DNA of 64,000 nucleotides from the sequence record PV577657; one strand, 5' to 3'. The notes under the pieces were generated by a model that was not told where the DNA came from, did no database searches, and worked only from the letters and a program-made list of their open reading frames with translations. The translations under genes were made by a program, and so were the position numbers. This document shows positions 2,978 to 48,635 of this stretch, in pieces. Source of the stretch: Escherichia phage vB_EcoS_MM-1. How positions within the stretch are numbered: position 1 is the first letter of the stretch; the number at the start of each line of letters is the position of its first letter.

Positions 2978-3430
2978 ATGTCATTCACACAGCAAGAACT
3001 TTTAGATAACTTCCGATATGAAGATGGTAAGTTATTTAGAACTACAGGAAGAAATGCAGGGAAAGAATGTTGTGTTTCTACAGGTAACGGATATTATCGT
3101 ATATCTCTAGGGAATAGGACTATGCTTCGGCATAGAGCAATATTTTTAATGCATCATGGATACTTACCTGATTTAGTAGATCATGTGAATACTATAAAAG
3201 GTGATGATCGTATTGAAAATCTTAGAGAGCAGACAGTATCCGGTAATCTAAGAAATATCAAATATAAGAAAGGAATGCATGTTTACCCTTCTGGTAGTAA
3301 GAACTGGCAAGTGGTATTTACTATTAACCGTAAACGTATAGTTAAAGGAACATATGACAACTATGAGGTTGCATGTTCTATGGCCAAGATGTTTAGAGGT
3401 CAATTATACGGTAGGGAATCAATCCAGTAA
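2978..3430 (+). CDS. HNH homing endonuclease
   Basis: RBS GGAGGTGAGG then ATG at 2978; motif HRAIFLMHHGYLPDLVDHVN...DDRIENL typical of phage HNH endonucleases. Confidence 0.8.
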   Translation: MSFTQQELLDNFRYEDGKLFRTTGRNAGKECCVSTGNGYYRISLGNRTMLRHRAIFLMHHGYLPDLVDHVNTIKGDDRIENLREQTVSGNLRNIKYKKGMHVYPSGSKNWQVVFTINRKRIVKGTYDNYEVACSMAKMFRGQLYGRESIQ

Positions 3431-3965: not shown

Positions 3966-6752
3966 GTGTTCTCAATCCTACAAGGTCATGCAGGATTTCA
4001 TCGCGATTTAGCCACAGGCATTTGGCGAGAAGTTAAAGCAGAAGACTATCTTTTTGCTAAAAGATTTTCCTCAAAGCATCCTGAAGGTAAACCAGCTTCA
4101 ATGCCCTTCAAGTTTGATGTAATTGATGAAGTTGATCCTCAAACCCTAGTAGAAATGCTCCCTCTTATGAGACGTTTAACGTCTGACCCTCATATCGTTG
4201 CGGTACGAGGTCGATGTCTTGCACCCAAAAATAATGTGCGGCGTAAGAAGGGCAACTTTAATGTATCTAACCCAAGTCATATAATTGCAATGGACGTGGA
4301 TGGTATTGTAGATACAGGTGGTTGTAACAAGTTTGATCTTGTTGGCATGGCTCGACATATTATTAGAATGTTAAATAGTATTAGTGAGGATATGTTTCCT
4401 CTTGATGCAGGGTTTATTGCTCATGCATCGTCTTCGGCTGGGCTAAAACCAGGTATCCGAATGCACTTAATACTAGAATCTAATGTTAAAGTAACTCAGG
4501 GTCAAATCAAATTCTTATTTACATCTATCAATGAAAGTAGTAGACAAAAGTATGGCTTTGATATTGCCGACTTAGCTTATTACTCTTCCGTACAGCTCCA
4601 TTATTTTGCAGATCCGTTATTTACCGATGGTATAGTAGATCCGTTTAAGGCGGAGGGTGCTTCACGTCTGGTATTTGTTAAGGGTTCTAAAGTAAACTTA
4701 CCTAATAATCTGGTTGACTATGAAACAACTAGAGGTGAGTTTAAGGAGGAGTTTTACTCTTTACTCGATCAAATTAAAGGTAAAAAAGCTGCCTCCGATA
4801 AAGTAGAGGAAACTATCAGCGAACTAGAAGAAGCTGAGGATGGAGTGTATCTACGTATCATACCTAAACTCTATCACAGAGCTTTAGAGGATGGTGTTGA
4901 TTTTGCATGGCTAGAAAAAGAAATCCGTCCAGCCTTATCAGAATATATTGCAACCAAAGATAATAGTCGTAATATTCAAGATTACTTTAATAACGGTCGT
5001 AAACAGGCTCTGAAAGCATTTGTTAATAATTCTAAACGCGATATACCTGATGTTTTAAAAGGTATTCCACTTAAAAAGCTAGAAACTAACTCTCTAGAAA
5101 CTGATAACTTCTTGAAATTAAATACTGTACCACCAGAAGGTTATATGACTTTTGTAAAAGCAAGTCTAGGTACAGGTAAAACTACGGCGGTTGTGCGTTG
5201 GTTAGATTCAGGAGTTATTAAAGGTAATTTCTTAGCAATTACCAATACTCGAGCACTGGTATCTTCAAATGCTAAGAAATTTAGTGCAGGACAATATGAT
5301 AAGTCTGTAGATATGCTTAATTTTAAGCGTGGTGCTATTGACCGTATGTCCACAACTATTCACTCTTTGCATAAGTTCAAGAGTTTTATTGGTCAAATCG
5401 ATGCAATCTTTATAGATGAATGTGATGCTGTAATGAATGACCTATTATTCGCCCCGGTTGTTAAACAACGTCGTGAATGTATTCAGGTTCTTCGGGATAT
5501 TCTTGCAACTGCAAAAATCATTATATTATCTGATGGGGATATTAGTGCAGAAACAATTGAAGCATATGGTTCTTTAATTGAGTTTGATAAACCGGTTGCA
5601 TTTTATAATCATCACCGAAAAATGCTATCAAAAGCTCATGCCTACGAGTTCCCTGATGAATCCAGTATTTGGGTTGCACTTCAGACTTCTCTAGAGATGG
5701 GTGAGAAATCTATCCTAGTATCTGACTGTGGGCCGGATGAACTGAATGAGAAGGGCATGGCGTTGCGTCGTAATACGGGTGCGTTAGTTAAGGAAATCCA
5801 CTCAAACTCTACGTCTGATGTAGATATTCGACGTATTCTGGATTACACAACTAATGAGTTAATTGACCAACAAATTGATTGCTTATTATGTAGTCCATCC
5901 GTAACGAGTGGTGTTGACTTCAACTATTTTGATAACGTATTCGTTATTACTAGAACCAGTAACCAAGCGCCAAACATGCGTTTTCAAGCAATCAGGCGCG
6001 ACCGTGGTGCTCAGAACATTTATTATTTTATTGATAAATCTACGAGTGGATTCTCCGCAGGCTCTGAACAATATAATATTGATGAAGGTTGGCTGGAGTT
6101 AGCACAGCAATTATACGCACGTCGTAGGGAGCTGGAGTCTAGGAACTATACTAGTACTTTACGTTATTACTTGCTTGATCAGGGTGCAACTATTGATATT
6201 TTCAGTGAAAGCTGGGGAACTATCGAAGGTGCAGGTAAAGAGTATACAGAAGAGCGAATCAAAGCCATTTTGTATTCAACTCCTGATTATTGTGCTCCAC
6301 GCCATGCAGATGCATATGAAGCTAAACTACTTCTTGTTCGCTATTATCATCTTGAGTCTATTAAAGATGTAACAGTTGAGCATGTTGAGCAATACATTAA
6401 GGATAAACCGAATGATCGAGCGGCATTCTTCCATAAAATGCACGAGATGTTCTGGGAAGATATTAAGAAGTGTTCAAATGTCACTATCAAACCATTCATA
6501 GAAGCTCTGAAAGGCAAGAAGAAAGATTTCTTCCTTAAAACAGGTCAGAGTGCTAACCCAAAATATGCCAGAATGTATCTTGGTATGATGGGTATTGGCA
6601 AGGATATGAACACGGAGAATATTGTAGACTGGTACAGAACTTATTGTAAAATCGAGTGTATGCCAATTCCTTTCAAATTCATGACAGAGGAAGAGAAGGC
6701 TATGGCAGAAGAAGTACTGTCCGAACTTGGAGCAACTAATGAAGACGCATAA
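3966..6752 (+). CDS. large replication protein: AEP-primase-like N-domain fused to a P-loop helicase domain (possibly the replication-origin-binding type protein of T5-like phages)
   Basis: In-frame GTG at 3966 with AGGAG at 3954-3958 (track start TTG 3888 is less likely); DxD motif IIAMDVDG, GIRMHLIL, Walker A ASLGTGKTT, Walker B IFIDECD. Confidence 0.6.
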   Translation: MFSILQGHAGFHRDLATGIWREVKAEDYLFAKRFSSKHPEGKPASMPFKFDVIDEVDPQTLVEMLPLMRRLTSDPHIVAVRGRCLAPKNNVRRKKGNFNVSNPSHIIAMDVDGIVDTGGCNKFDLVGMARHIIRMLNSISEDMFPLDAGFIAHASSSAGLKPGIRMHLILESNVKVTQGQIKFLFTSINESSRQKYGFDIADLAYYSSVQLHYFADPLFTDGIVDPFKAEGASRLVFVKGSKVNLPNNLVDYETTRGEFKEEFYSLLDQIKGKKAASDKVEETISELEEAEDGVYLRIIPKLYHRALEDGVDFAWLEKEIRPALSEYIATKDNSRNIQDYFNNGRKQALKAFVNNSKRDIPDVLKGIPLKKLETNSLETDNFLKLNTVPPEGYMTFVKASLGTGKTTAVVRWLDSGVIKGNFLAITNTRALVSSNAKKFSAGQYDKSVDMLNFKRGAIDRMSTTIHSLHKFKSFIGQIDAIFIDECDAVMNDLLFAPVVKQRRECIQVLRDILATAKIIILSDGDISAETIEAYGSLIEFDKPVAFYNHHRKMLSKAHAYEFPDESSIWVALQTSLEMGEKSILVSDCGPDELNEKGMALRRNTGALVKEIHSNSTSDVDIRRILDYTTNELIDQQIDCLLCSPSVTSGVDFNYFDNVFVITRTSNQAPNMRFQAIRRDRGAQNIYYFIDKSTSGFSAGSEQYNIDEGWLELAQQLYARRRELESRNYTSTLRYYLLDQGATIDIFSESWGTIEGAGKEYTEERIKAILYSTPDYCAPRHADAYEAKLLLVRYYHLESIKDVTVEHVEQYIKDKPNDRAAFFHKMHEMFWEDIKKCSNVTIKPFIEALKGKKKDFFLKTGQSANPKYARMYLGMMGIGKDMNTENIVDWYRTYCKIECMPIPFKFMTEEEKAMAEEVLSELGATNEDA

Positions 6753-7257
6753 ACCAATGCCTCCTATGGCATTTATCCTAGAAAAGCTTAGGTATGACGA
6801 AAGTACTGGGGACTTAATTTGGTTATCTGGCCCAAGGAAGGGAAAGGTAGCGGGCTCCAAAATGAAAACTGGGAGACAGCTAGAGTTTATGATAAATGGG
6901 GGGCGGACAGCTTACTTAGCCCATAGAATAATCTGGTTTATAAAGACAGGTGAAGATCCTGGAGATAAAACTATTGACCATAAAGACGGTGATAGTTTAA
7001 ACAACTTGTGGGATAATTTACGTAAGGCTACCTATTCCGAAAATGGAAAGAATAAGAAGTGTTCTACTAATTCTACCGGATTCACTGGAGTTGTAAAACG
7101 AGGTAATAGGTATATGGCCTACGCTTACTGCGATGGAAAGCAACATATTTTTGGTAGACGAGATACCCCGGAAGAAGCCCATCAGCTATACCTTAGGGGA
7201 GTTAAAGAGCTGTTTGGTGAATTTAATCCCTCGGAGAGATATGACAGTGAAGAATAA
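6727..7257 (+). CDS. HNH homing endonuclease
   Basis: AYLAHRIIWFIKTGEDPGDKTIDHKDGDSLNNLWDNL; start overlaps the 3' end of the preceding gene. Confidence 0.8.
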   Translation: MEQLMKTHKPMPPMAFILEKLRYDESTGDLIWLSGPRKGKVAGSKMKTGRQLEFMINGGRTAYLAHRIIWFIKTGEDPGDKTIDHKDGDSLNNLWDNLRKATYSENGKNKKCSTNSTGFTGVVKRGNRYMAYAYCDGKQHIFGRRDTPEEAHQLYLRGVKELFGEFNPSERYDSEE

Positions 7258-7474: not shown

Positions 7475-7482
7475 AAATTTAT

Positions 7483-7511
7483 TTGCATAGTGCAAAAAAT
7501 TTCTGTATAAT
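7483..7511 (+). promoter_or_regulatory. PN25-like strong early promoter
   Basis: TTGCAT, 17 nt, TATAAT, then AGATTCATAAATTTGAGAGAGGAG, near-identical to the T5 PN25 core and downstream box; palindrome TTTGCA-tag-TGCAAA overlaps the -35. Confidence 0.75.
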
Positions 7512-9388: not shown

Positions 9389-9697
9389 ATGAGCGAACAG
9401 GTAAATCAAAACTATGAAGGACACGTTGATGACCAGTCCATCATACTTTGGGAGAAGGAGGGAGAACAAGTAAGATTAACAGTATCTGAATTTCGTGGGA
9501 ATCTATACATGGGTATTCGTTACTGGCTTCTTGATATTAATGATGAGTGGTTTCCAACGAAATCTGGCTTCTCTTTTCCTTACACCCTAGAAACAACATC
9601 ACAGCTTTTCTATGCGTTTACACAGATTCTTAGCGAATCTGAGGTTTTACATGAAGTACAGAAACGAGCTGAAGAACTCAAAGCCAAGAATGCCTAG
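9389..9697 (+). CDS. hypothetical protein
   Basis: ORF track. Confidence 0.55.
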   Translation: MSEQVNQNYEGHVDDQSIILWEKEGEQVRLTVSEFRGNLYMGIRYWLLDINDEWFPTKSGFSFPYTLETTSQLFYAFTQILSESEVLHEVQKRAEELKAKNA

Positions 9698-9713
9698 TTC
9701 TTGGCTTTTTCTT
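9683..9713 (+). terminator. rho-independent terminator overlapping the stop codon
   Basis: GCCAAGAA-tgcctag-TTCTTGGC then TTTTT. Confidence 0.65.
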
Positions 9714-9724
9714 TATAAATGTAC

Positions 9725-9753
9725 TTGCTTTCAACTCAGTTTTGTTATATAAT
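9725..9753 (+). promoter_or_regulatory. sigma70-type early promoter
   Basis: TTGCTT, 17 nt, TATAAT, then ATTTATATAAATTAATGAGAGGG. Confidence 0.6.
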
Positions 9754-9783
9754 ATTTATATAAATTAATGAGAGGGTTGCAAA

Positions 9784-10056
9784 GTGAAAAAGATAAGTAT
9801 AAGTACACTTAAACCTTTCCCGTACATCGGACAGCCTCTTATACTTATGTGGGAGGAGAAGATTAATGGGGAAAAGTATACTAAAACTAGAAGTGGGTAT
9901 AAGCTGACTTCACTTCATTACGAAAAAGAAGTATTAGTAGCTGAAATATACTCTCCGTTGTCAGATAGGCTAGTAAAAACTACATATTTGCATCGTTGCA
10001 AAAATTATACATGGCACGGATCCACTAGACAACCCTCATACTGTGAGGCAGAATAA
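9784..10056 (+). CDS. hypothetical protein (GTG start)
   Basis: ORF track. Confidence 0.45.
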   Translation: MKKISISTLKPFPYIGQPLILMWEEKINGEKYTKTRSGYKLTSLHYEKEVLVAEIYSPLSDRLVKTTYLHRCKNYTWHGSTRQPSYCEAE

Positions 10057-11028
10057 ATGACCAATGTAAAAGACTTTATTAAACGCTGTCAAGAAGCATA
10101 TTATCAAGGTATGTCTTTAATCTCTGACGAAGAATATGATCGTCTGATTAAAAGATTTCCGTTAGAAGAAGAGATCGGGCCTAAGGGCGATATTCCACAT
10201 CTGTATCGTATGTATTCTTTACAGAAAGTTTATTATAATCGTGGAGATAAACCCCCGTTTAACCCATTAGGTCAGGTAGAAACTGATAAGTTAGATGGTT
10301 GTGCAATTTCTCTGTTATATATTAATGGCGAATTTGTTCAAGCACTAACTCGTGGTAACGGTATTCTAGGGAATGATGTCACAAGCAACGTAAGATTGCT
10401 GAACATCCCTAAAAAGATTTCCCAAAAAGTACCTACTCAAATCACTGGTGAAGTTCTAATTACAAAAGAAGTAGAAAATAAACGTAACTTTGCCTCTGGT
10501 GCTATTAACCTCAAAGATAGTGATGATTTTGTACAACGTATCGGAGAAGGTGGTTTAATCTTCGTTGCATATGGTATCCAGTGTTCTGCTGAATCTGTAG
10601 GTATTACAGAAGCATATTTAAAAGATATGCTTTGGCTGGAGAATGAGAACTTCTTAACAGTTGTTAATGTGCGTTCTTTCTTTAAATGGATTCCGACGGA
10701 CGGTAAAGTTGTTCGTATTAATGATAACAACAAATTCTTCCGTGAAGGCTGGACTAATAAATTCCCTCGTGGAGCATTCGCTATTAAAGAGGATGAAGAA
10801 GGCGAGATTACAACTCTTACTAAAGTTGAATGGCAGGTAGGAGCTTCTGGTAAAGTAACTCCAGTTGGTTATTTCGAACCGGTAATTATTGATGATGCTA
10901 CAATTGTTAAAGCGACTCTTAATAACGTTGATTATATTAACTCTCTTGATCTAGAGATCGGTTGCCAGATTCGAGTGATTCGTGCTGGTGGTGTAATCCC
11001 GTGCATAGTAGAGCGAGTATATGATTAA
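10057..11028 (+). CDS. NAD-dependent DNA ligase, adenylation and OB-fold part (subunit A of a split ligase)
   Basis: KxDG adenylation motif (KLDGCA), TRGNGILGNDVT, OB-fold end IRAGGVIPCIVERV. Confidence 0.85.
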   Translation: MTNVKDFIKRCQEAYYQGMSLISDEEYDRLIKRFPLEEEIGPKGDIPHLYRMYSLQKVYYNRGDKPPFNPLGQVETDKLDGCAISLLYINGEFVQALTRGNGILGNDVTSNVRLLNIPKKISQKVPTQITGEVLITKEVENKRNFASGAINLKDSDDFVQRIGEGGLIFVAYGIQCSAESVGITEAYLKDMLWLENENFLTVVNVRSFFKWIPTDGKVVRINDNNKFFREGWTNKFPRGAFAIKEDEEGEITTLTKVEWQVGASGKVTPVGYFEPVIIDDATIVKATLNNVDYINSLDLEIGCQIRVIRAGGVIPCIVERVYD

Positions 11029-11068
11029 TACATAGCCCTTTGCTACCCATCTACCATATCGGAATTAT

Positions 11069-11097
11069 AAAGTGGTTATTGACATTTTCGCCGCTTA
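11069..11097 (+). promoter_or_regulatory. sigma70 promoter inside the ligase spacer
   Basis: TTGACA, 17 nt, TATACT. Confidence 0.55.
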
Positions 11098-11171
11098 GGT
11101 ATATACTATTATCATTCAGTTGAGGGATAGAAAGTTATGGCGAGGGTAAGCAAAGTTAGTTAAAATTGTAG

Positions 11172-11200
11172 TTGCTAAATGCTTAAATACTTGTTATAAT
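11172..11200 (+). promoter_or_regulatory. sigma70-type early promoter
   Basis: TTGCTA, 17 nt, TATAAT, then ATTTATATAAATTGA. Confidence 0.6.
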
Positions 11201-11230
11201 ATTTATATAAATTGATAAGGAAGAAATTTG

Positions 11231-12010
11231 ATGAAAATCGAAATTCCAACACAATGTCCCTCTTGTGGTTCTAAGCTAGATCTTGTCAACGGACAATTAT
11301 TTTGTCGGAATAAGTCCAACTGTCCAGCGCAATCAAGTAAGTTAATTGAGAACTTCTGTACAAAAATGAAGTTAAAGGGCTTTGGTCCAAAAACTATTGA
11401 AAAGCTGGAGCTGACGAAGATCTCAGAACTATTTTACCTAACCGAAGAAGATTTGGTTAGAGCCGTGGGTAGCAAGGTTGCCGCTAAGTTAATTAGCGAA
11501 TTAAATACTAAAGTTCGCGGAGACATTGACTTTGGTTCAGTTCTCGGTTCTTTAGGAATCCCTCTAATTGGAGAGGTTGCAGCAAAGAAATTATCCCAAA
11601 ATTGCACTAGCTTCCACGATGTGAAGGCTGACGGCAAGGCTGGAGAAAACTACAAAGCCTGGCTAAATTCCCCGCAAGGCAAGGATGTTATCGAACTACC
11701 GTGGAAATTCTCAACTGGTATTAAGGGCACTAAAGCTGACGTCATCATTACAGATGAATTAGTTGCCCAGCCAAATGGAATCGCGGTATGTATTACCGGA
11801 TCTTTGCAAGATTTTGCAAATCGAACGGATGCAACAAACTATTTAGAAAGTCTAGGGTATACGGTTAAGAAATCCGTTACCAAAGACGTAAAATACCTGA
11901 TCTGTGAGGATGAATCAAAACGTTCTTCCTCATCTTATAAGAAAGCCGAAACGAATGGGATAGAAATCCTGTCGATTAAAGAACTATTGGAGAAAAATAA
12001 TAATGTCTAA
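11231..12010 (+). CDS. NAD-dependent DNA ligase, Zn-finger/HhH/BRCT part (subunit B)
   Basis: CPSCGSKLDLVNGQLFCRNKSNCPAQ matches the LigA zinc finger; BRCT-like C-terminus; RBS AAGGAAG. Confidence 0.85.
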   Translation: MKIEIPTQCPSCGSKLDLVNGQLFCRNKSNCPAQSSKLIENFCTKMKLKGFGPKTIEKLELTKISELFYLTEEDLVRAVGSKVAAKLISELNTKVRGDIDFGSVLGSLGIPLIGEVAAKKLSQNCTSFHDVKADGKAGENYKAWLNSPQGKDVIELPWKFSTGIKGTKADVIITDELVAQPNGIAVCITGSLQDFANRTDATNYLESLGYTVKKSVTKDVKYLICEDESKRSSSSYKKAETNGIEILSIKELLEKNNNV

Positions 12011-12770
12011 ACTGAACTGGAACGTAGAAGGTGTAACCGAGTCTCTGAAAGCAAAAGCCACTGCTCTGGGTGTTTCTGTAATCTCTCAAGAACAAGTAGC
12101 TGCTATCGCTGCTGAACTGGCTGCTGAAACTGGCAAAGATGTTACTGCTCGCTCTGTTGGCTCTAAACTGCGTAAAGAAGGTTTTGAAGTACAGAAAGCT
12201 AACGAAGTACAGAAATCCCCGTGGACTCCTGAGCAGGAAGCTGAACTGGTTGATTTCCTGAACGCTCATGCTGGTCAGTATACCTATGCTGAAATCGCTG
12301 CTGCTGTAGCTGGTGGTCAGTTCGGTGCTAAACAGGTACAGGGTAAGATCCTGAGTCTGGAAATGACCGCTTCTGTTAAACCAACTGAAAAAGCTGCTGC
12401 TGTTCGTTCCTTTACTCCGGATGAAGAAACTGATTTTGTTAATCAGGTTGTTGCTGGTGCTACTATTGAAGCTATCGCTGCTCACTTCGGTCGTAATATC
12501 AAGCAGATCCGTGGTAAAGCTCTGAGCCTGCTTCGTGAAGGTCGTATCGCTGCTATGCCGGTACAGGAAACTTCCAGTGCTAAAACTCGTGAAGATCTGT
12601 TAGAAGGTCTGGATCTGGTTAACATGACTGTTGCTGAGATCGCTGAGAAAACTGGTAAGTCTGAGCGCGGTGTTAAATCTATGCTGTCTCGTCGTGGTCT
12701 GGTTGCTAAGGACTATGATGGTGCCGCTAAGCGTGCTAAACTGGATGCAAAAGCTGCGGCTGCTGAATAA
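12003..12770 (+). CDS. abundant DNA-binding-like protein with three HeH/SAP-like repeats (possibly the D5-type protein)
   Basis: Internal repeats (VTARSVGSKLRKEG / AKQVQGKILSLE / IKQIRGKALSLLREG / ERGVKSMLSRRG); strongly biased GCT/CTG codon usage; size about 28 kDa. Confidence 0.5.
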   Translation: MSKLNWNVEGVTESLKAKATALGVSVISQEQVAAIAAELAAETGKDVTARSVGSKLRKEGFEVQKANEVQKSPWTPEQEAELVDFLNAHAGQYTYAEIAAAVAGGQFGAKQVQGKILSLEMTASVKPTEKAAAVRSFTPDEETDFVNQVVAGATIEAIAAHFGRNIKQIRGKALSLLREGRIAAMPVQETSSAKTREDLLEGLDLVNMTVAEIAEKTGKSERGVKSMLSRRGLVAKDYDGAAKRAKLDAKAAAAE

Positions 12771-12786
12771 TCTGGTAAATTAAACC

Positions 12787-12820
12787 TAAGGGGAGGGGGC
12801 TATGCTCCTTCCCCTTTTTG
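12787..12820 (+). terminator. rho-independent terminator
   Basis: AAGGGGA ... TCCCCTT stem followed by TTTTT. Confidence 0.6.
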
Positions 12821-12852: not shown

Positions 12853-14325
12853 ATGACCTTGTTTAACGTGCAAGCTGTAGTGTTGAAGATGCTTCTAGCT
12901 TCTGAACAGAAGCAAATAGCATTGGAAACATTCTCAAAACTGCATAAAGATCATTTTAATGACGCTTTCTCCTCAATTTACCAAGCCGTCCAGAATTATT
13001 ATAAAAAATATAACACAATGCCGTCCATTGACGCACTGATGCTTGAGGCTAATAGGAACGCCCGCCTTTCTCAAGCTCTAGTCGTTTTAGCTAACACTCA
13101 AATTCCAGAAGTGAGCATGGAACAGGCACTTGAAGTCCTAGAGGCCGAATATACACAGGATTTATTCCTAAAGCTTCTAGAAACAGACGTGCTTCAAGAT
13201 TTAACAATGCTGGATCAGGGAGAAATTCTCAACCGAGTTGCCTCCCTTCACTTAAAATTAGAAGAGAAAGTAACGAATACTGGAAAAGTATTCAACGCAG
13301 ATAACATGCGTATTTTCCAGAGAGAAGAAGATACCAAACTGAACCTAATCGCTCTTGGTATTTGTAATGAGTTCGACGCTCAAATTGGTTTAGCTCGCAC
13401 AGAAACGTTACTGCTTGGTGGTTGGCGTGGTACTGGTAAATCCATTATCTGTTCAAACATACAGGTTCAGCAATATTTGAATGGAGATATTGCTCCATAC
13501 TTCTCAATTGAGATGAAAGAACATGAAGTATTTAGACGTAATCTAGCCATGCTAGCTGGTGTATCAGCACTAGCAATGCGTAATAATACTCTAGAAGGTG
13601 CAGCTCTGTTGAGACTAGCCAGAACTAGAGCTAGGATGTTCAACGGTGGTGAAGAGCTTTTCGATAACTTCGTTAAACAGTATACAATGGCTAAGATGAG
13701 TGATTTCTACGATATGGAGAGTAAGCTAATAGAAGGGTATGAGCTACATACTCCTATGATTATTGTTTATGACCCTGAGTTGTCTATTACAACAGTTGAC
13801 GTAGAATTAAATAAATTAGTTGCTAGATATGGTGATAAAGTTACAGTAGCTCTACTTGACTATATTAACCAAACCCGACTTCCAGACTCTAAAACCATTG
13901 ATATGTATGACTGGAAAGAACAGATGGTTGTTAGCTCGTCTTTCAAATCTATCTGCCAGAAACATAACGTGGCTGGCGTAGCTCCTTACCAGATCGATCA
14001 AGACGGTAGAACACGTATGTCAAAGGGGATTCTTGATTCCGCAGACATGGCTGCTAATCTTAATGCTGCAAAAGCTGATAATGGTCAAGGTGCTATTATG
14101 TTTGACTTCGTTAAGACTCGTTCTTCTGATAGCGTGAAGTTTATGCCTAAAATGAACTGGGAAACTCTGCGAATGGATAACACTACCAACCTAGCAATGG
14201 AAGATATATCTCAAATGGAAGCTGAGTTCGTTATCCCTATTGAGAAGGATAAGCCGGCTCAACCTAAACGTGCTAAGAAAGACAAAGCTGAAAATTCAAC
14301 AGGTGAACAGGCCAGCGATATATGA
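12853..14325 (+). CDS. DnaB/gp4-like replicative helicase (RecA-fold)
   Basis: Walker A GGWRGTGKS; ATG 12853 with AAAGGAGA RBS (track start 12802 lies inside the terminator hairpin). Confidence 0.7.
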   Translation: MTLFNVQAVVLKMLLASEQKQIALETFSKLHKDHFNDAFSSIYQAVQNYYKKYNTMPSIDALMLEANRNARLSQALVVLANTQIPEVSMEQALEVLEAEYTQDLFLKLLETDVLQDLTMLDQGEILNRVASLHLKLEEKVTNTGKVFNADNMRIFQREEDTKLNLIALGICNEFDAQIGLARTETLLLGGWRGTGKSIICSNIQVQQYLNGDIAPYFSIEMKEHEVFRRNLAMLAGVSALAMRNNTLEGAALLRLARTRARMFNGGEELFDNFVKQYTMAKMSDFYDMESKLIEGYELHTPMIIVYDPELSITTVDVELNKLVARYGDKVTVALLDYINQTRLPDSKTIDMYDWKEQMVVSSSFKSICQKHNVAGVAPYQIDQDGRTRMSKGILDSADMAANLNAAKADNGQGAIMFDFVKTRSSDSVKFMPKMNWETLRMDNTTNLAMEDISQMEAEFVIPIEKDKPAQPKRAKKDKAENSTGEQASDI

Positions 14326-14855
14326 TAACACAGGAAAGGCTAAAAGAGTTATTTGATTACTCCCCAGGAACTGGGGAGTTTACTAGAAAAGTATCTAGAG
14401 GTAATCAGAAAGCTGGTAGTATAGCTGGTTCTTTAAGAAAAGATGATTATATATGTATATGGGTAGATGGAAAGCCTTACTATGCGCATCAACTAGCTTT
14501 TCTCTATATGGAAGGTTATTTACCTGAAGAAGTAGACCATATAAACCGTATACGAAGTGATAATCGTTGGGTTAACCTTAAAGATTCTTCTCACCAAGAG
14601 AATAGCAGGAATAAAGCAGCTAAAAGTAAATCAGGGTATATAGGAGTTAGTTGGAATAAACAAAGGCAAAAATGGCAAGTTCAACTAAGAGATACCAATA
14701 AAAAGAAAATATTCGGTGGATATTTTGAGTACCAGAATTTAGAATCAGCAGTAGATAAGATTAATAATCTACGATTACAATTTCATGGGGAAAATGCTAT
14801 TCAAGAAATATTCGACCCGTCTAATTATCCTGCATTAGAGGAGATAAATTCATGA
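14322..14855 (+). CDS. HNH homing endonuclease
   Basis: YAHQLAFLYMEGYLPEEVDHINRIRSDNRWVNL; overlaps both helicase end and primase start. Confidence 0.8.
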   Translation: MITQERLKELFDYSPGTGEFTRKVSRGNQKAGSIAGSLRKDDYICIWVDGKPYYAHQLAFLYMEGYLPEEVDHINRIRSDNRWVNLKDSSHQENSRNKAAKSKSGYIGVSWNKQRQKWQVQLRDTNKKKIFGGYFEYQNLESAVDKINNLRLQFHGENAIQEIFDPSNYPALEEINS

Positions 14856-35500: not shown

Positions 35501-35569
35501 AGTTAATTTCTCCTCTTTAATAACAATATTATAATAGTATTAGAAAATTTTATCAAGAAATTTTTATTT

Positions 35570-42529: not shown

Positions 42530-43015
42530 TTATCTGCGAAGTGACCTACGTGGAGGCTGATACCTCACTGTTACATTTATTTCTGCTAAACCATATGGGG
42601 CCAGTAGACCCTCATCTGTACTAACTGATGTAATGATCATATCAGTTGCCTCACATGGGAAGGTCGATCCATTAGGTTTACTAACAGTATATTCTAAATT
42701 TCCACCTGTGTCAATAACGGTTTTTATATCCGCTACGAGTTTTTCAAGTTGCTCTTGAATGTCTGTTTTCTCTTTATCGTACACCAGGATTGGAAGTTCT
42801 AAAAACATCCACTGTTGGCCCGAAGGAAGATACTGCCCAGTTTCAGTTCCGATATGGACTGCCACATAAGGAAACTCTCGTATTTCCTCAAATTTATAAG
42901 TTTGACGAGAAACGTTTCCATATAGGTTATTAAAATATTCATCAGGTTGAGAGCCATCCAACTGTTTAGATATACGGTCAACCAGAGCTTGTGCAATACT
43001 TGTTCTATGATCCAT
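42530..43015 (-). CDS. tail completion/terminator protein
   Basis: 161 aa, upstream of the tube gene. Confidence 0.5.
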   Translation of the reverse strand: MDHRTSIAQALVDRISKQLDGSQPDEYFNNLYGNVSRQTYKFEEIREFPYVAVHIGTETGQYLPSGQQWMFLELPILVYDKEKTDIQEQLEKLVADIKTVIDTGGNLEYTVSKPNGSTFPCEATDMIITSVSTDEGLLAPYGLAEINVTVRYQPPRRSLRR

Positions 43016-48521: not shown

Positions 48522-48635
48522 AGTGTTCTCCTCAACTGTATGAATATAGTATACATAATCGTATCGAATTTGTAAAGGGGATTTTAAAATGCAGGAATGG
48601 GATACCAACTGAGTAGTATCCCTTCCTATACTTAT

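What the first reader, a model, noticed from the sequence alone, without database searches (positions are those of the whole stretch)
10057..12010. NAD-dependent DNA ligase split into two genes exactly at the OB-fold / zinc-finger boundary, with promoters in the 200-bp spacer
ORF 10057..11028 ends with the OB-fold; ORF 11231..12010 begins with the LigA zinc finger. The spacer carries a near-consensus sigma70 promoter (TTGACA-17-TATACT) and a second T5-type promoter, so the two halves can be transcribed separately. A split ligase is known in T5-like annotation, but the promoter-bearing spacer suggests differential dosage or the relic of an excised insertion.
Basis: partly seen in the sequence, partly recalled or inferred. 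Interest (0 to 1): 0.4.

Follow-up and report, generated by a model that had tools for sequence, protein, structure and literature searches.

The report
Known split T5 ligase with promoters
This is the two-gene (ligA/ligB) NAD-dependent DNA ligase of T5-like phages with two early promoters in the gap; both are real but already annotated in reference T5 genomes, and a related phage's two-subunit ligase has been solved on nicked DNA.

Summary
ORF 10057..11028 encodes domain Ia, the adenylation domain and the OB fold. ORF 11231..12010 encodes the Zn finger, HhH and BRCT. The two tile the LigA profile TIGR00575 at positions 4-378 and 388-651. The 202-bp spacer holds TTGACA-17-TATACT and TTGCTA-17-TGtTATAAT.

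None of this is new. The window is a T5-like phage. T5 records name the genes ligA/ligB (dnlj1/dnlj2) and annotate both promoters (P-K 28b/28a; T5P36/T5P37). The literature has called the ligase "split" since 2005. PDB 9hu3/9i5i show the phage PR1 heterodimeric ligase on nicked DNA.

What I add:
- ligA and ligB are separate ORFs in all 80 IMG/VR relatives retrieved with a LigB query, and a promoter always sits just upstream of ligB.
- Extra genes in relatives (GIY-YIG endonucleases, NADAR, DprA-like, radical SAM) lie between ligA and the promoters.
- The spacer is not an insertion relic.
- Unsplit 555-578 aa relatives exist in the same PC4-ligase-D5-DnaB synteny. Seven of ten carry a promoter-like site inside the ORF at or just after the OB/Zn junction.

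The split coincides with the start of the ligB-D5 transcription unit.

The parts
9680..9708 (+). Intrinsic terminator ending the preceding unit (PC4-like gene 9389..9697)
   Evidence: Terminator scan, 12-bp stem plus T run. The equivalent site is annotated as a terminator in T5 AY587007 and in HASG4.
9715..9781 (+). Promoter of the orf90-ligA unit. Its -10 and initial transcribed block TATAATATTTATATAAATT lies at 9748..9766. It corresponds to T5P35 / 'putative promoter'.
   Evidence: 19-nt block identical to P2's -10 and downstream region. T5 records annotate a promoter and 'repeat b copy 4' between this terminator and ligA. The outer limits are approximate.
9784..10056 (+). 90-aa ORF of unknown function. 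Its stop overlaps the ligA start (TAAATG). It is absent from T5 ATCC and st0.
   Evidence: (no Pfam hit).
10057..11028 (+). ligA: catalytic subunit (domain Ia, nucleotidyltransferase with K78-L-D-G, and OB fold), 323 aa
   Evidence: Pfam. TIGR00575 positions 4-378. AlphaFold model with pLDDT 86.6 matches 9hu3_A / 9i5i_A at TM 0.82-0.85. 97-100% identical to annotated ligA of T5-like phages.
11029..11230 (+). 202-bp non-coding spacer with stop codons in all three frames and no terminator
   Evidence: fold z = +0.72; no Rfam family. 99% identical to T5.
11079..11107 (+). P1 = T5 'promoter P-K 28b' / 'T5P36': TTGACA-17-TATACT. The annotated feature corresponds to window 11059..11133.
   Evidence: Conserved in Klebsiella, Pectobacterium, Providencia, Proteus and Vibrio relatives.
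11138..11164 (+). Mini-ORF MARVSKVS* behind an SD-like GAGGGA in the P1 transcript. Probably not a gene.
   Evidence: Sequence. The ATG is not conserved in Klebsiella or Vibrio, but the purine block is.
11172..11200 (+). P2 = T5 'promoter P-K 28a' / 'T5P37': TTGCTA-17-TGtTATAAT followed by ATT (the early-promoter ATATT signature). The annotated feature corresponds to window 11152..11226.
   Evidence: TTGnTATAATATT is invariant in seven lineages. ATATT signature of early promoters: PMC7472727.
11231..12010 (+). ligB: DNA-binding subunit (Cys4 Zn finger, HhH, BRCT), 259 aa, with RBS AAGGAAG 8 nt upstream
   Evidence: Pfam. TIGR00575 positions 388-651. Matches PDB 9hu3_B 'DNA ligase subunit B' over its full length, E = 5.5e-80. 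RBS.
12003..12770 (+). D5-like DNA-binding transcription factor gene. Its start overlaps the ligB stop (ATGTCTAA), so it is co-transcribed and probably translationally coupled with ligB.
   Evidence: (Sigma70_r4_2, 9.6e-7).
12788..12816 (+). Strong intrinsic terminator closing the ligB-D5 unit
   Evidence: 13-bp stem with 8 GC pairs plus T run. Annotated in HASG4.

Best explanation
The locus encodes the heterodimeric NAD-dependent DNA ligase of T5-like phages. LigA (Ia, NTase, OB) carries the chemistry. By analogy with truncated LigA enzymes, it should self-adenylate with NAD+ but not seal nicks alone. LigB (Zn, HhH, BRCT) supplies the DNA-clamping half, and the two associate non-covalently on nicked DNA. 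They are translated separately: they are in different frames, there are stops in all frames between them, and ligB has its own RBS. The break in the gene coincides with a transcription-unit boundary. ligA is the last gene of the unit that starts after the terminator at 9680..9708. The tandem sigma-70 promoters P1 (P-K28b) and P2 (P-K28a) start a ligB-D5 unit that ends at the terminator at 12788..12816. Because no terminator follows ligA, ligB and D5 should receive read-through plus P1 and P2 transcription, giving them higher or longer expression than ligA (inferred). The arrangement is ancient and maintained by selection. It is not a recent accident or a decayed insertion. Shown here: domain complementarity, promoter sequence and conservation, and synteny. 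From outside sources: promoter annotation and the heterodimer-DNA structure. Inferred: transcript architecture, dosage, and the requirement of LigB for sealing.
For: Complementary halves tile the LigA profile and align across the junction with single-chain LigA. All 120 best homologues of the fused query are LigA-only proteins of 320-337 aa, down to 43% identity. In all 80 IMG/VR loci retrieved with a LigB query (LigB 38-100% identical), ligA lies directly upstream as a separate ORF. PDB 9hu3/9i5i are 'PR1 phage heterodimeric DNA ligase in complex with 21-mer nicked DNA'. LigN lacking Zn/HhH/BRCT adenylates but cannot ligate (PMC1684257). Both promoters are annotated in T5. Both are conserved in seven divergent lineages while the flanks diverge. 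All 55 distinct gaps have a site of at least 9/12 in the last 80 nt before ligB (44 have at least 10/12), against a shuffle mean of 7.74; 38 of 55 are at or below 5%. Inserted genes in relatives always sit between the ligA stop and P1. No terminator or structure follows ligA. The ligB stop overlaps the D5 start and a terminator follows D5.
Against: No transcript 5' ends, RNA levels or protein ratios were seen here, and promoter activity rests on annotation and conservation. I could not find the primary paper for P-K28a/b or for 9hu3 in the library. Each half scores below the TIGR00575 equivalog cut-off (173.8 and 107.2 against 444.45). The motif IV lysine is an invariant arginine in this family, so the kinetics may differ from canonical LigA. 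NAD+ use by this enzyme was not tested.
Confidence: 0.85

Rival explanations
1. The spacer is the scar of an excised or decayed mobile insertion (homing endonuclease gene or intron) that split a once-intact ligase. On this view the promoters are incidental.
For: The gap does receive mobile genes in relatives. Salmonella phage SP3 has a GIY-YIG ORF there (PF01541, 1.1e-5), and its ligA drops from 98-100% to about 70% identity in the last 160 nt, as expected for co-conversion. L071 has a second GIY-YIG/NUMOD ORF. Phage genes split by endonuclease genes are known, such as Aeh1 nrdA/mobE (PMC3045599, PMC2988022).
Against: The two annotated promoters account for nearly all of the 202 bp. Rfam finds nothing. 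No HNH or GIY-YIG remnant was seen. The spacer and both promoters are conserved from E. coli to Vibrio phages. The endonuclease insertions are rare (2 of about 437 records) and lie upstream of P1, so they were added to a pre-existing gap.
Confidence: 0.05
2. Promoter-first model. The split exists because a promoter for the downstream D5 regulator has to sit at this point in the replication module. In unsplit relatives that promoter is embedded in the ligase ORF, at the OB-Zn linker or just after it. Fission, or re-fusion, happened around it.
For: Ten unsplit ligases of 555-578 aa (33-40% identical to LigA+LigB) lie next to a 237-253 aa gene (confirmed as a D5 homologue for L094), with PC4-like, DnaB or DnaG genes detected in several of the contigs. 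They have at most about 16 nt before the D5-like gene. Seven of ten have a site of at least 10/12 between -60 and +270 nt of the first Zn-finger Cys codon, against 1.9 +/- 1.2 in synonymous-codon shuffles (0 of 300 reach 7). Seven of nine internal sites fall in 19.5% of the gene length. L097's lineage-specific linker insert encodes a perfect TTGACA-17-TATAAT, and L100's linker encodes TGcTATAATATATT. Only 2 of 68 split-lineage ligB 5' regions have such a site.
Against: The positional window was chosen after seeing the data. No expression data exist. Three of ten have no site. The direction of change (fission or fusion) is unresolved, and the NJ tree that interleaves split and unsplit forms has no support values.
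Confidence: 0.35
3. P1 and P2 belong to different temporal classes, with P2 early and P1 late-like, so ligB-D5 stays on late in infection while ligA is early only.
For: P1 shares gttaTTGACA-17-TATACT with the promoter at 42714(-). Its -10 and initial transcribed block matches 21 of 24 positions of the promoter at 48576(-). Those two lie in front of the gene I take to be the tail-tube gene and the portal/protease/major-head operon. PJ5 is described as late in PMC7472727; identifying 42714 as PJ5 rests on my memory of its sequence. P1 is the only TATACT-type site of at least 10/12 on the early strand.
Against: AY587007 labels both as 'putative early'. The P1 -10 hexamer is TATAAT in Proteus, Providencia and some Vibrio lineages. 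The late-region promoter at 35556 carries the supposedly early ATATT signature, so sequence class is a poor predictor of timing.
Confidence: 0.2
4. The two ORFs are joined into one protein by recoding or splicing (read-through, frameshift, ribosomal bypass, split intein or intron).
For: None beyond the adjacency of the two halves.
Against: The ORFs are in different frames and there are 5-7 stops in every frame of the gap. There is no room for intein fragments, since LigA ends at profile position 378 and LigB starts at 388. No intron model matches. The solved enzyme consists of two chains, and chain B starts MKIQIPT.
Confidence: 0.01

Closest known systems
Bacteriophage T5 ligA/ligB (dnlj1/dnlj2; AAU05253/AAU05254) with promoters P-K 28b / P-K 28a (T5P36/T5P37)
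   Same: Same genes, same 202-bp spacer (99% identical) and same two promoters. About 97% DNA identity over the locus.
   Different: The window has a 90-aa ORF between the upstream promoter and ligA that T5 ATCC and st0 lack. Otherwise nothing differs.
PR1 phage heterodimeric DNA ligase, PDB 9hu3 and 9i5i (Providencia phage vB_PreS_PR1, a T5-like phage)
   Same: Two chains that correspond one-to-one to LigA (E = 2.6e-103) and LigB (E = 5.5e-80). The model of window LigA superposes at TM 0.82-0.85 with 52-53% identity. The complex is bound to nicked DNA.
   Different: It is an orthologue in a different genus. The PR1 gap is 192 bp, with P1 = TTGACG-17-TATAAT.
Canonical single-chain bacterial LigA (E. 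coli 2owo/4glx, T. filiformis 1dgs/1v9p)
   Same: Same domain order and motifs (KxDG, OB, Cys4 Zn finger, HhH, BRCT). The sequences are collinear across the junction.
   Different: It is one polypeptide of about 670 aa. The phage enzyme is compact (582 aa in total), about 25-28% identical, has Arg instead of the motif IV Lys, and is split in the OB-Zn linker.
Unsplit compact ligases of environmental T5-like phages (for example L094, L097, L100)
   Same: 33-40% identical over the whole LigA+LigB length, with a D5-like gene immediately downstream in all ten and PC4-like, DnaB or DnaG genes detected in several.
   Different: They are one ORF with no spacer. Promoter-like sites lie inside the coding sequence.
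Aeromonas phage Aeh1 nrdA-a/nrdA-b split by the mobE homing endonuclease gene ('genes in pieces')
   Same: An essential phage DNA-metabolism enzyme encoded as two adjacent genes whose products reassemble (PMC3045599, PMC2988022).
   Different: There the endonuclease gene occupies the gap, and element-derived residues mediate assembly. Here the gap holds promoters, no residues are added at the junction, and endonuclease genes are only occasional later arrivals.

Membership tests
NAD-dependent DNA ligase (LigA, TIGR00575) | Nucleotidyltransferase domain with motif I KxDG | tested here: met
   PF01653, 2.2e-23. K78-L79-D80-G81 is invariant or nearly so in 20 LigA subunits and 10 unsplit relatives.
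NAD-dependent DNA ligase (LigA, TIGR00575) | N-terminal domain Ia (NMN-binding, specifies NAD+) | tested here: inconclusive
   The TIGR00575 alignment starts at profile position 4 / residue 7. Two N-terminal helices are predicted. Y15, Y27 and D28 are invariant. Equating these with E. coli Y22/Y35/D36 rests on memory, and phmmer against PDB did not align this segment.
NAD-dependent DNA ligase (LigA, TIGR00575) | OB-fold domain following NTase | tested here: met
   PF03120, 3.8e-22, residues 252-321.
NAD-dependent DNA ligase (LigA, TIGR00575) | Cys4 zinc finger, HhH and BRCT C-terminal modules | tested here: met
   Four Cys are invariant (C332, C335, C348, C354 of the fused numbering). BRCT scores 33.3 bits against a cut-off of 21.3. 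HhH hits are below cut-off, but TIGR00575 positions 388-651 are covered continuously.
NAD-dependent DNA ligase (LigA, TIGR00575) | All domains on one polypeptide, scoring above the equivalog cut-off | tested here: not met
   Two ORFs. Scores are 173.8 and 107.2 bits against a cut-off of 444.45. It is a split, divergent relative rather than an equivalog.
NAD-dependent DNA ligase (LigA, TIGR00575) | NAD+-dependent nick sealing | not testable with these tools
   Inferred from homology and from the PR1 heterodimer-nicked DNA structures.
T5-type heterodimeric ligase (ligA + ligB) | Adjacent ligA (Ia-NTase-OB) and ligB (Zn-HhH-BRCT) genes in a T5-like replication module upstream of D5 | tested here: met
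   100% identical to phage vB_EcoS_MM-2 and about 97% to T5-type records.
T5 early promoters P-K 28b / P-K 28a | Sequence identity with the annotated promoter features | tested here: met
   The spacer is 99% identical to AY692264 and AY587007, and the hexamers fall inside both annotated features.
T5 early promoters P-K 28b / P-K 28a | Transcription initiation in vivo or in vitro | not testable with these tools
   Only the annotation and my memory of the 1980s Bujard-lab promoter work. No paper was found in the library.
Gene split by a homing endonuclease or intron (Aeh1 nrdA type) | Endonuclease gene, intron or their remnants in the gap | tested here: not met
   No ORF of 30 aa or more lies wholly within the spacer. 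No Rfam hit. The spacer consists of promoters. The feature is met only in SP3/L035 and L071.
Split intein / trans-splicing | Intein fragments at the LigA C-terminus and LigB N-terminus | tested here: not met
   Profile coverage leaves 2 residues at the LigA C-terminus and 1 at the LigB N-terminus.

The most novel reading that the evidence does not exclude
The ligase is split where it is because a promoter for the D5 transcription-factor gene is anchored at the OB/Zn-finger boundary. In unsplit T5-like relatives that promoter is written into the coding sequence of the inter-domain linker (L097: in-frame perfect TTGACA-17-TATAAT; L100: TGcTATAATATATT) or just downstream. Fission, or re-fusion, has occurred around it, possibly more than once. 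A corollary is that LigB is made in excess of LigA, or for longer. That could tune how efficiently T5's own site-specific nicks are sealed.
Probability: 0.3. Interest if true: 0.5.

Novelty: already known. Interest (0 to 1): 0.22.

Why it matters
As stated, the finding adds nothing to what T5 annotation, the 2005 genome paper and the 2026 PR1 ligase structures already say. The comparative picture is a small addition. It offers a concrete, testable reason for a conserved gene fission, namely an embedded promoter at a domain boundary that serves the next gene. It also marks the ligA-ligB gap as a recurrent landing site for accessory and selfish genes in Demerecviridae. If LigA:LigB stoichiometry is controlled by these promoters, that could bear on the old question of why T5 DNA keeps its nicks despite a phage-encoded ligase.

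Tried and rejected
- Intron or known RNA in the spacer: Rfam at E up to 10 gave only two chance hits.
- Terminator or structure after ligA: none found; fold z = +0.72.
- Read-through, frameshift, bypass or intein: excluded by frames, stops and profile coverage.
- The extra 193 bp in phA11, oldekolle and others: it lies upstream of ligA, not in the spacer.
- HNH or homing endonuclease in the gaps of smaug, Stubb, Athena, BBMuffin and 70E37-2: none. The cargo is NADAR, DprA-like or unknown.
- Literature searches by promoter sequence, PDB code and the names K28a/K28b found nothing usable. No T5 transcriptome paper was found. The supplement of PMC7472727 holds only figure legends.
- Early versus late classification by the ATATT discriminator: unreliable, because the late-region promoter at 35556 also has it.
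- The NJ tree of the LigB region interleaves split and unsplit forms but has no support values, so I draw no conclusion on the number of events.
- The mini-ORF at 11138..11164 is not conserved as an ORF.
Full report
**What is in the window.**
ORF 10057..11028 (+, 323 aa) and an ORF ending at 12010 with ATG at 11231 (259 aa) are present as described. The first carries the NAD-ligase adenylation domain (PF01653, 2.2e-23) and the ligase OB fold (PF03120, 3.8e-22, ending at residue 321). The second starts with a Cys4 zinc finger (CPSC-x12-C-x5-C) and has weak HhH hits and a BRCT domain (5.7e-8). Against NCBIfam TIGR00575 (LigA, 652 positions), LigA covers positions 4-378 and LigB covers 388-651. 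Full-length T. filiformis and E. coli LigA align without a break across '...AGGVIPCIVERVYD|MKIEIPTQCPSCGS...'. The split is therefore exactly in the short OB-Zn linker, with about nine linker positions missing and nothing added.

The two ORFs are in different frames. The 202-bp spacer has 5-7 stop codons in each frame, and ligB has its own AAGGAAG ribosome-binding site. The scan finds TTGACA-17-TATACT at 11079..11107 (11/12) and TTGCTA-17-TATAAT with an upstream TG at 11172..11200 (10/12). The number of promoter-like sites in the surrounding 3.6 kb is not above chance (8 found, 9.3 expected). The case for these two therefore rests on annotation and conservation, covered below.

**Identity and prior knowledge.**
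The window is a T5-like phage. It is 100% identical over the locus to Escherichia phage vB_EcoS_MM-2 and about 97% identical to T5-type records. [quoted passage not shown] 2005 (PMC1684257). It also names ligA AAU05253 and ligB AAU05254 (PMC3632103).

The two reference T5 records annotate both spacer promoters. AY587007 has 'putative early promoter T5P36' and 'T5P37' between dnlj1 and dnlj2. AY692264 has 'promoter P-K 28b' and 'promoter P-K 28a' between ligA and ligB. The window spacer is 99% identical to both, and the hexamers fall inside the annotated features.

PDB entries 9hu3 (released 2026-01-14) and 9i5i (2026-02-18) are titled 'PR1 phage heterodimeric DNA ligase in complex with 21-mer nicked DNA' (one with the phage nick sequence, one with a random sequence). 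Their chains A and B correspond to LigA (E = 2.6e-103) and LigB (E = 5.5e-80). Chain B is 100% identical to Providencia phage vB_PreS_PR1 / PSTCR5. My model of window LigA (pLDDT 86.6) superposes on chain A at TM 0.82-0.85. Both the observation and its promoter component are therefore already known.

**How it most likely works.**
For another NAD+ ligase, a fragment holding only Ia, the adenylation domain and OB adenylates itself normally but cannot ligate without Zn/HhH/BRCT (PMC1684257). I therefore infer that LigA is the catalytic subunit and LigB the DNA-clamping subunit, assembled non-covalently as in the PR1 structures.

Transcriptionally, the gene break coincides with an operon boundary. 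A terminator (9680..9708) and a promoter whose -10 and downstream block is identical to that of P2 (9748..9766) precede orf90-ligA. No terminator or stable structure follows ligA. P1 and P2 precede ligB. The ligB stop overlaps the start of the D5 transcription-factor gene (ATGTCTAA), and a strong terminator (12788..12816) follows D5. I infer that ligB-D5 receives read-through plus two dedicated promoters, while ligA receives one. It is plausible but not measured.

**Conservation.**
- All 120 best database homologues of a fused LigA+LigB query, down to 43% identity, are LigA-only proteins of 320-337 aa.
- In all 80 IMG/VR loci recovered with a LigB profile (38-100% identity), ligA lies immediately upstream on the same strand as a separate ORF. 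Gaps range from 70 bp to 1.36 kb.
- Aligning the region upstream of ligB from T5, smaug, Klebsiella, Proteus and two Vibrio groups shows invariant TTGAC...TATA.T (P1) and TTGnTATAATATT (P2) amid diverged flanks.
- Enterobacterial and Vibrio lineages have the tandem pair, at about -120 and -30 from the ligB ATG. Environmental lineages with gaps of 70-120 bp have one near-consensus promoter, mostly at about -30 to -45.
- All 55 distinct gaps have a site of at least 9/12 in the last 80 nt (44 have at least 10/12), against a shuffle mean of 7.74.

**Is the spacer an insertion relic?**
No. The two annotated promoter features cover nearly all of it, it has no Rfam match, and it is conserved family-wide. 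The stretch between the ligA stop and P1 is, however, a hot spot for added genes:
- a 64-aa ORF in smaug;
- a NADAR protein in Proteus phage Stubb (1.6e-31);
- DprA-like (phrog_768) and unknown ORFs in Vibrio Thalassavirus;
- a crAss001_48-domain ORF;
- a radical-SAM protein;
- two GIY-YIG homing-endonuclease genes.

The GIY-YIG gene of Salmonella phage SP3 (L035) is found in only 2 of about 437 records. It is accompanied by a drop in ligA identity from 98-100% to about 70% over the last 160 nt (14 synonymous and 6 non-synonymous codon changes in the last 30 codons). This is what co-conversion or target-site divergence would produce. These are later arrivals in an existing gap, not its origin.

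**Unsplit relatives and a possible reason for the split.**
An exhaustive search with LigB found mostly standalone proteins of about 250 aa. It also found twelve compact single-chain ligases, ten of which (555-578 aa) I examined. They are 33-40% identical to LigA+LigB over the full length and have an 8-20 residue linker at the T5 break point. All ten lie in T5-like gene neighbourhoods with a 237-253 aa gene immediately downstream, several of which give faint Sigma70_r4_2 hits as T5 D5 does. PC4-like, DnaB, DnaG or PolA genes were detected in several of the contigs. For L094, homology of the flanking genes was confirmed: D5 at 43% identity (1e-56) and the PC4-like gene at 44% (4e-23).

In these genomes the D5-like gene follows the ligase with at most about 16 nt between them. 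Seven of the ten ligase ORFs contain a sigma-70-like site of at least 10/12 between -60 and +270 nt of the first Zn-finger cysteine codon. Synonymous-codon shuffles give 1.9 +/- 1.2, and 0 of 300 reach 7. Seven of the nine internal sites lie in 19.5% of the gene length. The window for this test was chosen post hoc.

In L097, a lineage-specific linker insert (GVDNLSSDEYNNN) spells a perfect in-frame TTGACA-17-TATAAT. In L100, the linker encodes TGcTATAATATATT, the T5 early-promoter signature (ATATT motif from PMC7472727). This suggests that a promoter serving D5 is anchored at this domain boundary, and that fission, or re-fusion, took place around it. An unsupported NJ tree interleaves split and unsplit forms, so neither the number nor the direction of events is resolved. 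I give this reading about 0.3-0.35.

**A second, weaker idea.**
P1 resembles late structural-gene promoters. It shares gttaTTGACA-17-TATACT with the site at 42714(-). Its -10 and transcribed block matches 21 of 24 positions at 48576(-), in front of the portal/protease/major-head operon. P2 is of the common early type. This could mean dual temporal control of ligB-D5. Against it, the T5 annotation calls both promoters early, P1's -10 hexamer varies among lineages, and the ATATT criterion fails for the late-region promoter at 35556.

**Verdict.**
The comparative additions are of modest interest.

Noticed in passing
L035 (Salmonella phage SP3) 3199-3837; ligA 3' end 3046-3206: A GIY-YIG homing-endonuclease gene sits right after the ligA stop. 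The last 160 nt or so of ligA fall to about 70% identity, against 98-100% upstream, which looks like a co-conversion or target-immunity footprint. It is present in only 2 of about 437 T5-like records.
   Followed up: partly
L005 (Proteus phage Stubb) 1640-2257; L006/L007 (Vibrio Athena, BBMuffin); L049 564-1568; L045 3319-3537; L071 1415-2560: The ligA-ligB gap carries varied cargo in relatives: a NADAR domain protein (possible ADP-ribose removal from DNA), a DprA-like protein (phrog_768), a radical-SAM protein, a crAss001_48-domain protein and a second GIY-YIG/NUMOD endonuclease. All lie upstream of the promoters.
   Followed up: partly
window 9784-10056: The 90-aa ORF overlapping the ligA start is absent from T5 ATCC and st0, where the promoter abuts ligA. 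Phage phA11 has a further 66-aa ORF there. The 5' flank of ligA is therefore also a variable slot for small ORFs.
   Followed up: partly
window 11138-11164: An eight-codon mini-ORF (MARVSKVS*) follows an SD-like GAGGGA in the P1 initial transcribed region. The ATG is not conserved outside the T5/Epseptimavirus group, but the purine-rich block is. A near-identical block follows the late portal-operon promoter at 48548, where it serves as a real RBS.
   Followed up: partly
window LigA residue R220 (codon about 10714-10716): The position aligned with the E. coli LigA motif IV lysine (DGVVIK) is an invariant arginine in all split and unsplit compact phage ligases examined.
   Followed up: no
window 35556-35528 (-), 42714-42686 (-), 7482-7511 (+): These sites match, from memory, the classical T5 promoters PD/E20 (with the 'aaagaggagaaattaactatg' leader used as RBSII in expression vectors), PJ5, and a PN25-like promoter. 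PD/E20 lies in front of the distal tail protein gene, yet carries the 'early' ATATT motif.
   Followed up: partly
window about 6739-7257 and about 14322-14855 (+): HNH endonuclease genes are annotated in the 100%-identical record. One follows the origin-binding protein gene and one lies between the DnaB-like helicase and the primase. These are further selfish-element insertions in the replication module.
   Followed up: no
L096, L099, L102: about +205 to +209 nt after the first Zn-finger Cys codon: Three unsplit ligase genes have a promoter-like site at almost the same offset inside the HhH-coding region. This suggests a conserved internal promoter position distinct from the linker one.
   Followed up: partly
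window 12003-12770: The D5 protein hits Sigma-70 region 4 (PF08281, 9.6e-7) and several HTH families, consistent with its annotation as a DNA-binding transcription factor.
   Followed up: no
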